From a virus: 64,000 bases of DNA. The notes below the pieces were generated by a model. The model searched no databases, was not told the DNA's origin, and worked only from the letters and a program-made list of their open reading frames with translations. Location: IMG/VR virus record IMGVR_UViG_3300045972_000138, positions 127,513 through 191,512 of that record. One strand, given 5' to 3'. Shown here one piece after another: positions 6,642 to 16,381 of the stretch. The translations under genes and the position numbers were made by a program. The number at the start of each line of letters is the position of its first letter. Within the stretch, counting starts at the first letter, position 1.

Positions 6642-8216
6642 ATGACAAACAACAGAGTAAACTTTACAGAGCGCCATCTTCACGGTGGTTGGGCAAAATA
6701 TCTACCAGCTATTAGCGGTTTCTACACTACACACCTAGGTAAGGATCTTGCAGACCCTACCTTTATTCCGCCAGATCGCGTACCTAAGGGATTTGAATTT
6801 GGAATGCAAGGTATTAATTTCTTTAACGAAGAAGATAGTTATTACAATTACAAATTCGGTCTATACTCGGCAGGTCATGCAGAACGCAACTTAGCAAAAT
6901 GCAATGCTAGAGAACCGATGATACATAATAGAGATCGTAACAAAACCATTCTTATTGGTGACTCAGGGGGTTTTCAGATTGCAACAGGTGTTATTAAGGT
7001 AGATTGGAAGACTGTTATGACACCGGCAGGCGACAAGTTACGCGAAGAAATCTTACGCTACTTAGAGCATACGGCAGACTGGTCAATGACATTAGACGTA
7101 CCTGCATTCGCAGCAGTACCGCCACTTAGCGAAAAGACGGGTCTAACAAAGTTCTCTGACTGCTTAGATGTATCCGAGCATAATCTAAAATACTTTATGG
7201 AACACCGTATTCCGGGTAAAACAAAATTCTTGAATGTATTATCGGGCACAGATGAGGCTACTTCTAAAGAGTGGTATGAACGAGTCGTACCTTATAGTAT
7301 GCCAGATGCAGTAGAAGCGATGGGATACACACGCGATCGTACACTAGAAGGGTGGGCCTTTGCCGGTATTAATATGAAGAATATGCCGTGCGTACTAAAC
7401 AGACTATTAGACCTGCGCGACGATAATTTACTTGCCGATAAAGATTGGATTCACTTCCTAGGCATTGGTAGACTAGATTGGGCTTGCTACCTGACATCAA
7501 TTGAACGTGCATTGCGTAAGCATTATAATCCTAATATCAACATTAGTTTTGATGCTGCATCACCATTTGTTGCAGCAGGAGGTTATGCATTATCTTATAA
7601 TTACAATAAGTTTAGCGAAACTCAGTTAACATATGCAATGGGCCGTGGCGTAGATAATAAGGATTTGAAAGGCTCGACAGAAGCAATGCCTTTCCAGGGC
7701 CCGATTAATGACCGCTTAACAGTTGGCGATATGTGTGTTATGGGTCCAACTGATTTAAACAAGCACGGCAAAGTCGGTAATACAAGTTGGGACACCACAT
7801 CGTATGCATTAGTTATGGCACACAATGTTCATAACCATATTCAGGCTATTCAGGAAGTAAATAGATTAGCAGACTTAGAATACTCAAGAGTACCGGAATT
7901 AGATATTAGTACTTGGAGTATTAAACCCGGTGGTAAAACTAAGGCCAAGCCGAAAAGTGTGCATATACCTAATAAGATAATTTATTTCAATCATTTTGTA
8001 AATCGTGTGTTAGATCCTGCAACAAAAAACCCGCGCCAACTGATAGAAGATAATATAGGATTCTTAGATCATATTAGCTTTAGTAGCAAAGCCCCTAAGA
8101 AAGTAGAAACAACCTTTGGTGATATGTGGGAAGTAATTGATGACGAAGTTGACCTGCCCGACATAGACGATTTAGCTGTTGAAGATAACGACACATTAGC
8201 AAACGATGCAGGTTGA
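6642..8216 (+). CDS. tRNA-guanine transglycosylase (TGT) family protein, DpdA-like putative DNA 7-deazaguanine transglycosylase
   Basis: TGT catalytic-loop motif ILIGDSGGFQIATG; 524 aa; acidic C-terminal tail; QueE encoded 7 kb downstream. Confidence 0.5.
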   Translation: MTNNRVNFTERHLHGGWAKYLPAISGFYTTHLGKDLADPTFIPPDRVPKGFEFGMQGINFFNEEDSYYNYKFGLYSAGHAERNLAKCNAREPMIHNRDRNKTILIGDSGGFQIATGVIKVDWKTVMTPAGDKLREEILRYLEHTADWSMTLDVPAFAAVPPLSEKTGLTKFSDCLDVSEHNLKYFMEHRIPGKTKFLNVLSGTDEATSKEWYERVVPYSMPDAVEAMGYTRDRTLEGWAFAGINMKNMPCVLNRLLDLRDDNLLADKDWIHFLGIGRLDWACYLTSIERALRKHYNPNINISFDAASPFVAAGGYALSYNYNKFSETQLTYAMGRGVDNKDLKGSTEAMPFQGPINDRLTVGDMCVMGPTDLNKHGKVGNTSWDTTSYALVMAHNVHNHIQAIQEVNRLADLEYSRVPELDISTWSIKPGGKTKAKPKSVHIPNKIIYFNHFVNRVLDPATKNPRQLIEDNIGFLDHISFSSKAPKKVETTFGDMWEVIDDEVDLPDIDDLAVEDNDTLANDAG

Positions 8217-8418
8217 GTTACAATCTAAACTGTCAACGCTGGACGAACTTATAAAAATCCAGCGTGATAGTTTAGAGCGTGGATACATGCACGGCATGCT
8301 AAATGGGCTTATAATGGCACATTCAGTATTCTCCGGGCAGAGTCCTGAGTTTACTAAAATGCCTAAAGTGAAGAATAAAGTTAGACACTATTTAAGGAAC
8401 CAAAATGTCAAAAAGTGA
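8206..8418 (+). CDS. hypothetical small protein
   Basis: ATG 8206 overlapping end of upstream gene; 70 aa. Confidence 0.35.
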   Translation: MQVELQSKLSTLDELIKIQRDSLERGYMHGMLNGLIMAHSVFSGQSPEFTKMPKVKNKVRHYLRNQNVKK

Positions 8419-8737
8419 AAAGAAATTATTTGTAGTTGAGGCTATTAGTATGTTCCGCCATACATATGTCATTGAAGCAAAATCGTTAGAACATGCATAC
8501 GATGAAGTAACAATGCGTGACTCAGGAAGCGAGTTAGACGACTTTGAAGAAGTATCACAACGTTTTCTAGGCGAGACTATATCCAATGGTCGTCAAATTA
8601 AAAGAAAAGAATTCAACGAATTGTTGGAAACATTTAAGAACGATAAAGATGAGTCAACTTCCTGGTGGATGGGCGAACGGCTTATTCGCAAAATCGATTA
8701 TAAGCACGACAGAGAAGGCAACACAGTAGAAGAATAA
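8405..8737 (+). CDS. hypothetical protein (110 aa)
   Basis: ORF, acidic. Confidence 0.5.
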   Translation: MSKSEKKLFVVEAISMFRHTYVIEAKSLEHAYDEVTMRDSGSELDDFEEVSQRFLGETISNGRQIKRKEFNELLETFKNDKDESTSWWMGERLIRKIDYKHDREGNTVEE

Positions 8738-8979
8738 TGGCCGCAGAGATAACACACAACGATCTCCTGAATCAGGATTTAAATGTAGGTAACTACGTTG
8801 TGGCTTCGCGCAGGGGCCAGTATAGTAGCACAATGACTATATGCCAGATAACAAAAACAACGCCAAAGAAGGTCTTTCTTCAGGAAGTCAAAACAAAGAG
8901 AGAATGGTCGACCTGGCCGCAAGAAACTGTTAAACTTAGCGGTGAAGATGTTTTACATTATATTTTGAAGTATGTCTAA
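8737..8979 (+). CDS. hypothetical protein (80 aa)
   Basis: ATGG overlap with upstream stop. Confidence 0.5.
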   Translation: MAAEITHNDLLNQDLNVGNYVVASRRGQYSSTMTICQITKTTPKKVFLQEVKTKREWSTWPQETVKLSGEDVLHYILKYV

Positions 8980-9169
8980 TACATCGGCACCGTACATTCA
9001 TATGGCACAAGTTATTACACCTACCTCTAAAACAACATACCTTGACGGAGTAGAGTCGTATTCTATATCTGCCATATTATCGAGGGAAGAGGAAGAAGAC
9101 GAAATTATTCGCCGATTAAAAGGCAATGACGATAGCTTTACATTAGAGATGTGGATAAAATATGCTTGA
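8972..9169 (+). CDS. hypothetical small protein
   Basis: ORF 65 aa. Confidence 0.4.
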   Translation: MSNTSAPYIHMAQVITPTSKTTYLDGVESYSISAILSREEEEDEIIRRLKGNDDSFTLEMWIKYA

Positions 9170-14715: not shown

Positions 14716-15073
14716 ATGGCACGAAGGCATTACTGAACAAGAGTTTACAGATGCAATAAATGATGCGGTAATTAACGCACTTAAAGATGGTGTAAATGCT
14801 AAACCGCCAATTGCAGATTATAAAGATTACGTTAAAGCACATCTGAAGTTCTGGGCAGAGTCGGGTGTCGCTGCTCCAGGCAACGAATTGCAATCAATAC
14901 AGGCGTGGCTTAGATATTCATCGAATCATTCTAAAGAAGAAATTCAGGATACCTGGAGGACTAGAATGACTCTGCTAATGAAAGCAGCACAGGAAGTATA
15001 CGATGGTGGCCAGGCCGAAGAAGATAGAATCGGTATTTACGACAACCGTCCAGATATGGATAGAGGCAGATAA
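14708..15073 (+). CDS. hypothetical protein (121 aa)
   Basis: RBS AGGAGA; ATGA junctions. Confidence 0.6.
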   Translation: MIKWHEGITEQEFTDAINDAVINALKDGVNAKPPIADYKDYVKAHLKFWAESGVAAPGNELQSIQAWLRYSSNHSKEEIQDTWRTRMTLLMKAAQEVYDGGQAEEDRIGIYDNRPDMDRGR

Positions 15074-15276
15074 TGAATGAACGAACTGAGGAATTAGCAA
15101 GGCAGGCGTTTGAGTTTGGATTAGACACTGATCCTATTCTATATTACGAAGTAGGGAAGTTTGCCGAGTCGATTGTTAAGGAATGTGCATCACTATTTGA
15201 CCCGGATTTAACAGTGTTACATGAAGAGCGAATTTTGCGAGAAAGCATTTTGAATCATTTTGGGATTAAGGAATAA
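15073..15276 (+). CDS. small protein, paralog family (C-terminal HFGIKE)
   Basis: MNERTEEL...IVKEC...HFGIKE; paralogous to 15279-15500 and 43864-44046. Confidence 0.6.
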   Translation: MNERTEELARQAFEFGLDTDPILYYEVGKFAESIVKECASLFDPDLTVLHEERILRESILNHFGIKE

Positions 15277-15278
15277 CG

Positions 15279-15500
15279 ATGAACGAACGAATTAACGAAC
15301 TCGTCGGGCAGGCAAAGTTTATGGCAGAAGAAAGCACAAATAAGAAAATTTCTGCCAACACTGAATTGTATATGTTTGCTGAAAAGTTCGCTGAGTTGAT
15401 TATTAGGGAATGTCGTGTTACAATGAGTGAGAACTTTCACGAATGCAGGACTGCATCTCTAATGGATAAAGTAATCAAAGAACACTTTGGAGTTAAGTAA
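15279..15500 (+). CDS. small protein, paralog family (C-terminal HFGVK)
   Basis: MNERINEL...IIREC...EHFGVK. Confidence 0.6.
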   Translation: MNERINELVGQAKFMAEESTNKKISANTELYMFAEKFAELIIRECRVTMSENFHECRTASLMDKVIKEHFGVK

Positions 15501-16381
15501 TGTTCGGAACTAATGAAATTATCGGTAAGAAGTATTTTAAGGATGCACCTGCAGACAGCTTGTTTGTAACAAGTATGTTCTTCACACTCCAAGGAGAAGG
15601 CCCGTATGCTGGGCAACCTGCATTGTTCATCCGCCTGGCAAAGTGCAATTTAGATTGCTCATTCTGCGACACATTCTTTGACGATGGCGATTGGATGACG
15701 TTTGACGAGATTGACGAAAAGATTGAAGAAACTATCGAAGCCTACTGGACTAACAAAGGGCAAGAAGTACCTCAGTGGGCAGTTAATACCACACCTGGCG
15801 TTAAGGCAAATCCTGGTATCGTGCTTGTAATGACCGGCGGCGAGCCGCTATTGCAAGATAACATCTCTGCGTTTATGCAACAGCAACTTCAGTACTTCAA
15901 AGCGGTGCAAGTCGAAAGCAATGGTATTTTAGATACAGAAATTCCGCGTCTTGTTACTCTTGTATGCAGCCCAAAGTGCATGGAGAAAGACGGCAAAGCT
16001 GTAAAGTATTTTAGACCAAGCAAAACTATTCTCGAAGTAGCAGATTGTTTAAAGTTTGTAATGAGTGCAGACGTAGATAGTCCATACAATAATGTGCCGG
16101 ATTGGGCGCACGAATGGAAGCGGAATACAGGCAAAGAAATCTATTGCAGCCCAATGAATATTTATAATAGCCTGCCACAGAAGATTAAACTCATTCGTGC
16201 CGATAATGGTAAGATCACAATGGCAGAGCGTAGTACAGTCGATGAAGTGATTGACTTCTGGGAGCCAGGCGTTCTTAATTTAAAAGAGAATGAACTTAAC
16301 CATAAGTATACAGCACGTTACTGTATGGATCATGGATTCAAACTTAACTTGCAAATGCATTTGTACGCAGGATTATCTTAA
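15500..16381 (+). CDS. queE: 7-carboxy-7-deazaguanine synthase QueE (radical SAM)
   Basis: [32 protein letters not shown] matches QueE N-terminal cluster-binding block; MTGGEPLL; C-terminal [19 protein letters not shown] resembles E. coli QueE tail. Confidence 0.85.
   Translation: [293 protein letters not shown]

What the first reader, a model, noticed from the sequence alone, without database searches (positions are those of the whole stretch)
6642..16381. Candidate 7-deazaguanine DNA hypermodification island: DpdA-like TGT plus QueE, with a GT-B-like putative glycosyltransferase and a GalE-like epimerase between them
Protein 6642-8216 carries the TGT catalytic-loop signature (ILIGDSGGFQIATG). 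A TGT-family protein in a phage is what DpdA does: it swaps guanine in DNA for preQ0-type bases. Protein 15500-16381 is an unambiguous QueE ([32 protein letters not shown] and the E. coli-like C-terminus). Known phage deazaguanine systems also carry FolE, QueD and QueC, none of which I can find here. The unexplained genes between the two enzymes are instead a GT-B-like putative glycosyltransferase (9893-11071), a GalE-type NAD epimerase (12637-13641) and three unknowns (11246-12067, 12064-12465, 13688-14221). That mix could indicate a non-canonical or sugar-decorated deazaguanine modification, or a route that relies on the host for precursors.
Basis: partly seen in the sequence, partly recalled or inferred. 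Interest (0 to 1): 0.85.

Follow-up and report, generated by a model that had tools for sequence, protein, structure and literature searches.

The report
Phage 7-deazaguanine DNA-modification gene island
This stretch of a giant-phage genome encodes a pathway that very probably swaps guanine in the phage's own DNA for a 7-deazaguanine base to escape host nucleases, and it carries a conserved sugar-transferase and an unknown protein that published versions of the pathway do not describe.

Summary

The 133-aa "unknown" (12064-12465) is DpdL, the QueD paralog proposed as the CDG decarboxylase in phage phiST, whose G is fully replaced by 2'-deoxy-7-deazaguanine. This explains why no QueC is present. 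FolE and QueD are absent from the 64-kb window.

The GT4-type glycosyltransferase (9893-11071) lies beside or near DpdL in seven phage lineages. An uncharacterised protein (11246-12067) recurs too. GalE is accessory, present in three of five sampled lineages of this clade.

The cultured relative PA5oct, with the same core, is reported to have restriction-resistant DNA attributed to modified G. Whether the final base is plain dDG or sugar-decorated is untested.

Verdict: a real deazaguanine island, a new variant of a known kind.

The parts
6642..8216 (+). DpdA-like guanine transglycosylase. A very divergent TGT-superfamily TIM barrel of 524 aa with an extra C-terminal region and an acidic disordered tail. 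Predicted to exchange G in phage DNA for a 7-deazaguanine base.
9893..11071 (+). GT4-type (GT-B) glycosyltransferase-like protein of 392 aa. A conserved partner of DpdL; the acceptor is unknown.
   Evidence: Pfam PF00534 at 28.8 bits, above the 26.4 cutoff. All 26 aligned homologs, including PA5oct gp167 and ACP17 gp124, hit PF00534 at E of at most 1, best 1e-06. The profile gives weak PDB hits to GT4 enzymes GlgM, WbaZ, PglA and WbnH. It lies adjacent or within 3 kb of DpdL in PA5oct-like phages, ACP17, BUCT-ZZ01, Phosso, X1/BUDD and BCSR5. The best 120 of more than 7,900 homologs are 78-92% identical to it, more conserved than the TGT-like protein.
11246..12067 (+). Protein 'X'. A conserved ~170-aa N-terminal domain of an uncharacterised family, then a disordered linker and a conserved C-terminal tail (LGLD..LKP..DAAxAYAEG..DPL..KKPK). 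Function unknown.
12064..12465 (+). DpdL: a QueD/PTPS-fold paralog proposed in the literature to decarboxylate 7-carboxy-7-deazaguanine (CDG) to 7-deazaguanine.
   Evidence: phrog_17812, E 7e-30. Homolog of phiST CGPG_00067, which is DpdL (31% identity), and 47-63% identical to the DpdL genes of PA5oct, ACP17, X1, BCSR5 and Phosso. Carries the published DpdL signature LxxxHRHxF as L-GYA-HRH-I-F. Only 17-22% identical to phage QueDs (signature from PMC10516641).
12637..13641 (+). GalE, a UDP-hexose 4-epimerase. An accessory gene that could supply the sugar donor for the glycosyltransferase.
   Evidence: TIGR01179 at 303.6 bits against a cutoff of 262.3, and PF01370 at E 5e-52. GGNGFIGS and YASTK motifs are visible in the translation. 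Present in the same slot in L004, L012 and L013 but absent in L007 and L014. PA5oct gp164 in the same slot is a truncated epimerase-like protein (PF01370 at 29.6 bits).
13688..14221 (+). Conserved 177-aa hypothetical protein between GalE and QueE. Whether it belongs to the system is uncertain.
   Evidence: Called as a 177-aa gene in L004 and L012. A 191-aa counterpart lies in L007. No family hit for the longer 13550-14221 reading.
15500..16381 (+). QueE-like radical-SAM enzyme, predicted 7-carboxy-7-deazaguanine (CDG) synthase.
   Evidence: phrog_2076 'QueE-like', E 5e-50. The only genuine PDB hits are the E. coli, B. multivorans and B. subtilis QueE structures. [21 protein letters not shown] and LQMHLY motifs are present. 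43% identical to ACP17 gp126 and 57% to Phosso QueE. It scores below all NCBIfam QueE cutoffs.

Best explanation
The island is a DpdL-type 7-deazaguanine DNA-modification system inside the replication module of an uncultured PA5oct-related jumbo phage. The proposed pathway runs as follows. CPH4 is made from GTP by FolE and QueD; these are not in the window, so they are either host enzymes or encoded elsewhere in the phage (inferred). QueE (15500-16381) converts CPH4 to 7-carboxy-7-deazaguanine (inferred from family). DpdL (12064-12465) processes CDG, by literature proposal decarboxylating it to 7-deazaguanine, so no QueC is needed (inferred from phiST). The divergent TGT-fold enzyme (6642-8216) then acts like DpdA and exchanges guanine in phage DNA for that base after replication (fold shown here, activity inferred). 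The result is DNA resistant to G-reading restriction enzymes. A GT4 glycosyltransferase (9893-11071) and protein X (11246-12067) are conserved additional parts. GalE is an optional supplier of a UDP-sugar. Their most likely role is further decoration of the inserted base, or assistance to the transglycosylase. This step is inferred from gene linkage only.
Against: No biochemical data exist for this protein family. It is not recognised by Pfam TGT, and it lacks the CxCxxC zinc motif of canonical TGT that BCSR5's DpdA keeps. DpdL's decarboxylase activity has never been demonstrated: DpdL plus DpdA from phiST and from ACP17 gave no dDG in E. coli. FolE and QueD are missing from the window. QueE is far below the curated cutoffs. 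The GT-like gene is absent near DpdL in phiST, RHph_I1_18 and Ahp1, so it is not obligatory. Plain 7-deazaguanine offers no obvious handle for a sugar.
Confidence: 0.75

Rival explanations
1. Nucleotide-level route. The deazaguanine base is converted to a nucleotide by a phosphoribosyltransferase, then becomes a dNTP and is incorporated by the phage polymerase while dGTP is depleted. The TGT-like enzyme would play only a minor or salvage role.
For: An XGPRT-like PRTase sits inside the cluster in PA5oct (gp163, PF00156 at 43.9 bits) and in BUCT-ZZ01 (49.8 bits). A MazG-like pyrophosphatase is in the cluster in phiST and, weakly, in relative L013. Complete G replacement in phiST is easier to explain by incorporation during synthesis.
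Against: No PRTase or MazG was found in this window, by Pfam scans or a regex for the PRTase motif. The TGT-like gene is the most constant partner of DpdL and QueE. The published view is that all deazaguanine-modified phages carry a DpdA and modify DNA after replication.
Confidence: 0.1
2. The TGT-like enzyme modifies RNA (tRNA of phage or host) or a protein, as the CBASS protein Cap10 does, rather than DNA.
Against: The four tRNAs in the window (Arg-tct, Met-cat, Leu-taa, Thr-tgt) are not GUN-anticodon TGT substrates. The gene sits in the replication module next to the polymerase and clamp. DpdL partners are linked to DNA dDG in phiST. PA5oct DNA itself is restriction-resistant.
Confidence: 0.05
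3. There is no single system: a lone QueE-like radical-SAM gene, an unrelated TIM-barrel protein, and unrelated sugar-metabolism 'moron' genes (GT and GalE) lie together by chance.
For: Many small unrelated ORFs separate the genes. GalE is missing from two of five sampled lineages of this clade. Weaker partial GT-like hits also occur in phages that gave no DpdL hit (PhiXhv-12/15/16, Ep026, Ep032).
Against: The same four gene families recur together in seven phage lineages of different families and hosts, often directly adjacent and together with FolE and QueD.
Confidence: 0.05

Closest known systems
DpdL/DpdA3 7-deazaguanine (dDG) system of Cellulophaga phage phiST (Cui, Hutinet et al., NAR 2023, PMC10516641)
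   Same: QueE plus a DpdL homolog (LxxxHRHxF signature) plus a TGT-superfamily transglycosylase, without QueC, placed beside the DNA polymerase.
   Different: The transglycosylase here is 524 aa against 259 aa, and is barely alignable to DpdA3 (hhalign probability 37%). FolE, QueD and MazG are not in the window. A GT4 glycosyltransferase, protein X and GalE are present; phiST lacks them and that paper's main text does not mention them.
Gene cluster of Acidovorax phage ACP17 gp119-gp126 (QueD, FolE, gp122, DpdA, gp124, DpdL, QueE)
   Same: Homologs of X (gp122), GT-like (gp124), DpdL (gp125, 49% identity) and QueE (gp126, 43% identity). The DpdA (gp123) is distantly homologous.
   Different: ACP17 is a T4-like phage of 156 kb. 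Its DpdA is 424 aa and from a different subfamily. FolE and QueD are in the cluster. It has no GalE. Its DNA modification is not reported in the text I could read, and DpdA plus DpdL from it were inactive in E. coli.
Pseudomonas jumbo phage PA5oct (Wroclawvirus) gp168-gp162
   Same: Closest cultured relative of the whole module: PolB, clamp, gp168 (50% identical TGT-like), gp167 GT-like, gp166 DpdL (57% identity), then QueE-like, then exonuclease. Its DNA is reported as restriction-resistant with a modified G.
   Different: PA5oct carries a PRTase (gp163), a truncated epimerase-like protein (gp164) and a different QueE lineage (gp162; only 30 N-terminal residues align). X is encoded elsewhere (gp121). 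gp168 is 'hypothetical' in all public records seen, and the study reporting the modified G does not name it.
Bacterial DpdA (PDB 7ui4) and tRNA-guanine transglycosylase (PDB 3unt)
   Different: 12-14% identity, no Pfam PF01702 hit, no CxCxxC zinc site, about 100 extra C-terminal residues, and no DpdB-like partner seen.
T4 alpha/beta-glucosyltransferases acting on 5-hydroxymethylcytosine DNA (my own knowledge)
   Same: The beta-glucosyltransferase, like this protein, is a phage-encoded GT-B-fold sugar transferase associated with a DNA base-modification pathway.
   Different: No detectable sequence relationship was tested or found. The base here is a purine analogue, and no hydroxymethylase is present.

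Membership tests
TGT/DpdA superfamily | TGT-type (beta/alpha)8 barrel fold | tested here: met
TGT/DpdA superfamily | Catalytic Asp in the DSGGFQ-type loop and second Asp in the FD(S/C) motif | tested here: met
   D107, S108, G110 and Q112 are invariant; D304 and S307 (ISFDAASP) are invariant in 50 homologs. hhalign aligns them with DSGGLQ and YDSTT of phage DpdAs. The roles of these residues are inferred from my knowledge of TGT, not tested.
TGT/DpdA superfamily | Structural zinc site CxCxxC...H | tested here: not met
   No CxCxxC anywhere in the 524-aa sequence. The only invariant cysteines are C282 and C365. BCSR5's DpdA keeps CNCPIC, while ACP17, X1 and ZZ01 also lack it.
TGT/DpdA superfamily | Recognition by the curated sequence model (Pfam PF01702) | tested here: not met
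   No Pfam, NCBIfam or PHROG hit. A profile of 50 homologs finds no TGT in the PDB by sequence.
TGT/DpdA superfamily | Guanine-for-deazaguanine exchange on DNA | not testable with these tools
   Needs enzyme assay or nucleoside mass spectrometry.
DpdA3 subfamily (phiST CGPG_00065) | Sequence relatedness to CGPG_00065 | tested here: inconclusive
   hhalign probability 37%, E 3.5e-4, over 125 columns. It is closer to ACP17-type DpdA (probability 78-86%).
DpdL (proposed CDG decarboxylase) | QueD-like protein with signature LxxxHRHxF replacing CxxxHGH | tested here: met
   The window protein has L-G-Y-A-H-R-H-I-F. It shares the conserved glutamates with QueD. 33% identity to phiST DpdL against 17-22% to QueDs (signature).
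DpdL (proposed CDG decarboxylase) | Co-occurrence with QueE and a DpdA, without QueC | tested here: met
   QueE and the DpdA-like gene lie within 10 kb. No QueC domain was found in the window scans.
DpdL (proposed CDG decarboxylase) | CDG decarboxylase activity | not testable with these tools
   Never shown biochemically, even for phiST and ACP17.
QueE (7-carboxy-7-deazaguanine synthase) | Radical-SAM cluster motif, N-terminal QGEG motif, GGEP SAM motif, C-terminal QxH motif | tested here: met
   TLQGEG, C49-x3-C53-x2-C56, TGGEPLL and LQMHLY are seen in the translation. The alignment to E. coli QueE 6nhl covers these motifs.
QueE (7-carboxy-7-deazaguanine synthase) | Score above the curated family cutoffs | tested here: not met
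   Best 70.2 bits (TIGR03963, cutoff 260.1). All five QueE models are below cutoff. PHROG 'QueE-like' is matched at E 5e-50.
GT4 / GT-B glycosyltransferase | Glycos_transf_1 C-terminal domain | tested here: met
   PF00534 at 28.8 bits against a cutoff of 26.4. 26 of 26 homologs hit it at E of at most 1, best 1e-06. Weak PDB profile hits to GT4 enzymes.
GT4 / GT-B glycosyltransferase | Sugar-donor and acceptor specificity; catalytic EX7E-type motif | tested here: inconclusive
   Invariant E299 and E317 are spaced 17 residues apart, not 7. No structure was predicted for this protein.
GalE (UDP-glucose 4-epimerase) | Equivalog model above cutoff, NAD-binding GxxGxxG motif and YxxxK motif | tested here: met
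   TIGR01179 at 303.6 bits against 262.3. GGNGFIGS and YASTK are seen in the translation.

The most novel reading that the evidence does not exclude
In a large group of jumbo and T4-like phages, the DpdL-type deazaguanine pathway does not stop at 7-deazaguanine. The conserved GT4 glycosyltransferase, fed in many members by a cluster-encoded GalE, attaches a hexose to a 7-substituted deazaguanine in DNA. To my knowledge this would be the first sugar-decorated purine in any genome. The GT and/or protein X would then be the 'missing enzymes' that made DpdA plus DpdL inactive when reconstituted in E. coli.
Probability: 0.25. Interest if true: 0.85.

Novelty: new variant of a known kind. Interest (0 to 1): 0.62.

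Why it matters
7-Deazaguanine DNA modifications are a major phage counter-defence, and the published catalogue lists bDpdA and DpdA1-4 as the inserting enzymes. This work adds four things.

1. It identifies a very large transglycosylase clade: more than 5,000 metagenomic proteins at 90% clustering, none carrying any Pfam annotation. Sequence models cannot see it. It includes gp168 of the therapeutic phages PA5oct and Paride, whose modified G currently has no assigned inserting enzyme.

2. It assigns DpdL, which explains the absence of QueC.

3. It shows that a GT4 glycosyltransferase and an unknown 170-aa domain family travel with DpdL and DpdA across unrelated phages. These are concrete candidates for the unexplained failure to reconstitute dDG synthesis, or for a new glycosylated base.

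4. The predictions can be tested directly in cultured phages: PA5oct, Paride, ACP17, BUCT-ZZ01 and X1.

Tried and rejected
- Near-identity DNA search of the island against 50,697 phage records found nothing.
- Sequence searches of the 524-aa protein against Pfam, PHROGs, NCBIfam and PDB, singly and as a 50-sequence profile, found nothing. Only structure revealed the fold.
- I looked for a PRTase in the window, by regex and Pfam, after finding one in the PA5oct and BUCT-ZZ01 clusters. None was found.
- I tried to reach the rest of the source genome to look for FolE and QueD. The X protein is 100% identical to one on a 237,609-bp JGI contig, but the lookup returned only a 38.9-kb Logan contig covering the same region.
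- Literature searches for a link between DpdL or deazaguanine and a glycosyltransferase found nothing relevant. One search was badly framed and wasted.
- I rejected 'GalE is core' after finding relatives without it.
- I rejected 'GT is obligatory for DpdL' after finding phiST, RHph_I1_18 and Ahp1 without a nearby GT.

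
Full report
**1. Observation**

The window is a one-directional block of phage genes at about 40% GC.

- The surroundings form a replication module: a family-B DNA polymerase (2664-5558) and a 5'-3' exonuclease (18151-19185) by Pfam, and a 245-aa protein (5613-6350) that is 31% identical to the annotated sliding clamp of phage Phosso.
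- Family scans confirm a GT4-type glycosyltransferase domain in 9893-11071 (PF00534, 28.8 bits, just above the cutoff).
- They confirm a bona fide GalE in 12637-13641 (TIGR01179, 303.6 bits against a cutoff of 262.3).
- They confirm a QueE-like radical-SAM protein in 15500-16381 (phrog_2076, E 5e-50). This protein reaches only 55-70 bits against NCBIfam QueE models whose cutoffs are 200-300.
- Its only genuine matches among solved structures are the three QueE structures.

**2. The TGT-like protein**

By sequence alone the 524-aa protein is invisible. It has no Pfam, PHROG or NCBIfam hit, and no PDB hit even with a 50-sequence profile. It nevertheless belongs to a very large family: more than 5,182 clusters at 90% identity, found on metagenomic contigs up to 388 kb, none annotated.

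- An AlphaFold2 model built on 50 homologs is confident (pLDDT 82.8, pTM 0.86).
- Foldseek ranks bacterial TGT and QTRT2 first, with low TM-scores.
- Three TGT-like motifs are invariant or nearly so in the family: GDSGGFQ, ISFDAASP and AHNVxNH.
- The canonical CxCxxC zinc site is absent.
- A profile-profile comparison links the family to the DpdA genes that sit next to DpdL in ACP17, BUCT-ZZ01, X1 and BCSR5 (probability 86%, E 5e-6, 214 columns). The DSGG, HxLGxG and xDxxx motifs are in register. X1's copy is annotated as queuine tRNA-ribosyltransferase.
- Similarity to phiST DpdA3 is marginal (probability 37%).

I conclude that the protein is a member of the TGT/DpdA superfamily. It forms a distinct clade that current sequence models miss.

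**3. DpdL and the missing QueC**

The 133-aa ORF 12064-12465 (phrog_17812, 'unknown') has homologs in 28 phage records, including Cellulophaga phage phiST.

- The phiST homolog is CGPG_00067, which Cui, Hutinet and colleagues named DpdL. It is a QueD paralog whose CxxxHGH signature has changed to LxxxHRHxF, and it is proposed to decarboxylate CDG.
- phiST encodes FolE, QueD, QueE, DpdL and DpdA3 but no QueC. All of its dG is replaced by 2'-deoxy-7-deazaguanine (PMC10516641).
- The window protein carries the signature exactly (L-GYA-HRH-I-F). It groups with DpdLs (33-60% identity) rather than QueDs (17-22% identity).
- This explains why QueC is absent. FolE and QueD are not in the 64-kb window. 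They could be host-supplied or encoded elsewhere. In PA5oct a PTPS (gp230) is reported far from the cluster.

**4. Conserved gene set**

The closest cultured relatives are the PA5oct-like Pseudomonas jumbo phages (Wroclawvirus).

| Phage | Gene order or content |
|---|---|
| PA5oct | PolB, clamp, gp168 (50% identical TGT-like), gp167 (GT-like), gp166 (DpdL, 57% identity), gp165, gp164 (truncated epimerase-like), gp163 (PRTase), gp162 (QueE-like), then exonuclease |
| ACP17 | QueD, FolE, gp122 (X), gp123 (DpdA), gp124 (GT-like), gp125 (DpdL), gp126 (QueE) |
| BUCT-ZZ01 (cyanophage) | QueE, PRTase, QueD, FolE, a second GT4, DpdA-like, DpdL, GT-like (57% identical to the window's) |
| X1 | GT-like, TGT, DpdL, QueE, preceded by FolE |
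| BCSR5 | The same set |
| Phosso | PolB, clamp, DpdL, GT, FolE, QueE |

- The GT-like gene is therefore adjacent to, or within 3 kb of, DpdL in seven lineages.
- It is missing near DpdL in phiST, RHph_I1_18 and Ahp1.
- Within the window's own clade, TGT-like, GT, X and DpdL are constant.
- GalE is present in three of five sampled lineages.
- One relative carries a MazG-like gene in the cluster, and another carries a methyltransferase.
- The QueE slot is filled by either of two very different QueE-like lineages. This argues that both perform the same reaction.

**5. The unresolved parts**

- The GT-like protein is a GT4/GT-B enzyme by every test available. Its acceptor is unknown.
- Protein X has a conserved ~170-aa N-terminal domain. 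That domain forms a family of 677 clusters at 50% identity, mostly standalone.
- Neither protein is mentioned in the main text of the two key deazaguanine papers, nor in any paper my searches returned.
- Those authors reported that DpdL plus DpdA from phiST and from ACP17 produced no dDG in E. coli, and they suggested that unknown enzymes may be missing. For ACP17-type clusters, GT-like and X are obvious candidates.

**6. Mechanism and rivals**

*Best supported (confidence 0.75).* This is a DpdL-type 7-deazaguanine DNA-modification pathway whose inserting enzyme is the divergent TGT-fold protein.

- What is shown: the fold, the homologies and the synteny.
- What is inferred: the chemistry, drawn from phiST and from general knowledge of TGT and QueE.
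- Experimental support is indirect. [quoted passage not shown] That study named only gp162 and gp230, and no transglycosylase (PMC12191111).
- Public records call gp168 'hypothetical'.

*Rivals:*

- A nucleotide-level route (0.1). PRTase and MazG genes in some clusters support it. They are absent here.
- An RNA or protein target (0.05).
- Chance juxtaposition (0.05), contradicted by the synteny.

*Most novel reading not excluded (about 0.25).* The GT, fed by GalE, glycosylates a 7-substituted deazaguanine in DNA. Against it, plain 7-deazaguanine has no obvious acceptor group, and the GT is not universal among DpdL phages.

**7. Verdict**

It is not categorically new. DpdL-type systems and modified G in PA5oct are already published, and deazaguanine in jumbo phages has been predicted.

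It does add three things:

- a large, unannotated DpdA-like clade;
- the assignment of DpdL in this phage group;
- a conserved GT4 + X (+ GalE) extension that published pathway schemes lack.

Interest 0.62; novelty: new variant of a known kind.

Noticed in passing
window 38011-38701 (- strand): Two adjacent minus-strand genes encode the Fe-S cluster scaffold proteins IscU (38315-38701; GAPACGD, YGCGSAIASS and LPPVKIHCS motifs) and IscA (38011-38331; C-terminal CGCGESF). They may help load the [4Fe-4S] cluster of the phage radical-SAM QueE. Relatives L012 and L014 carry an Fe-S_biosyn gene just upstream of PolB.
   Followed up: partly
L007:18703-19614 versus window 15500-16381; L001:18427-19299: Within the same jumbo-phage clade, the QueE slot is occupied by two very different QueE-like lineages. 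The window type is 43-57% identical to ACP17 and Phosso QueE. The other type is 33% identical to PA5oct gp162 and has a long insertion after the first cysteines. Only about 26-30 N-terminal residues align between the two types.
   Followed up: partly
L001:17922-18356 (PA5oct gp163); L005:15303-15764 (BUCT-ZZ01): A small XGPRT-like phosphoribosyltransferase sits inside the deazaguanine cluster of PA5oct and of the cyanophage BUCT-ZZ01. This hints that some of these phages convert the deazaguanine base to a nucleotide. None was found in this window.
   Followed up: partly
window 6642-8216 (residues ~482-524) and 11246-12067 (residues ~175-273): The TGT-like protein ends in a disordered, strongly acidic tail (DDEVDLPDIDDLAVEDNDTL...). 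Protein X has a disordered linker followed by a conserved C-terminal peptide (LGLD..LKP..DAAxAYAEG..DPL..KKPK) that the standalone ~170-aa family members lack. These may be docking peptides for replisome partners such as the clamp encoded two genes upstream. This is pure speculation.
   Followed up: no
L013:17834-18130; L014:15719-16573: Relatives of the window phage carry extra genes inside the cluster: a MazG-like pyrophosphatase (weak Pfam hit; phiST also has a MazG in its cluster) in one, and a Methyltransf_24 methyltransferase between GT and X in another. The cluster is a hotspot for accessory modification genes.
   Followed up: no
window 2664-5558 versus L001:7581-12807: The family-B DNA polymerase is a single 964-aa ORF here. 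In PA5oct the homologous polymerase is split into two ORFs by a Hef-like homing endonuclease gene.
   Followed up: no
window 47826-51593 and 51100-53450: Four tRNA genes were found (Arg-tct, Met-cat, Leu-taa, Thr-tgt). They are followed by a stretch of about 2 kb with almost no ORFs longer than 70 aa. Rfam finds nothing there beyond the tRNAs.
   Followed up: partly
window 27227-36732: A block of unusual auxiliary genes: a MoxR-like AAA ATPase (27227-28330; 55% identical to the PA5oct 'ATPase'), an SPFH/Band-7 protein (31374-32636), a solute-binding-protein-like + LysM protein (32717-33814), the RNA ligase RtcB (33815-35077; 428 bits), and a DUF2201 metallopeptidase + VWA protein (35533-36732).
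   Followed up: no
window 44000-64000 (not located precisely): Pfam hits among ORFs in this part of the window include an HD_4 domain protein, an ATP-dependent DNA ligase domain, a NUMOD3/I-TevI-like homing endonuclease, a cell-wall hydrolase and a second PKD-domain protein. I did not map which ORF carries which domain.
   Followed up: no
L009:6091-6624 (Xanthomonas phage X1): In X1, a 'phosphoadenosine phosphosulfate reductase family' protein lies between FolE and the GT/DpdA/DpdL genes. From my own knowledge, that family belongs to the same superfamily as QueC. If so, this cluster may make a different deazaguanine derivative.
   Followed up: no
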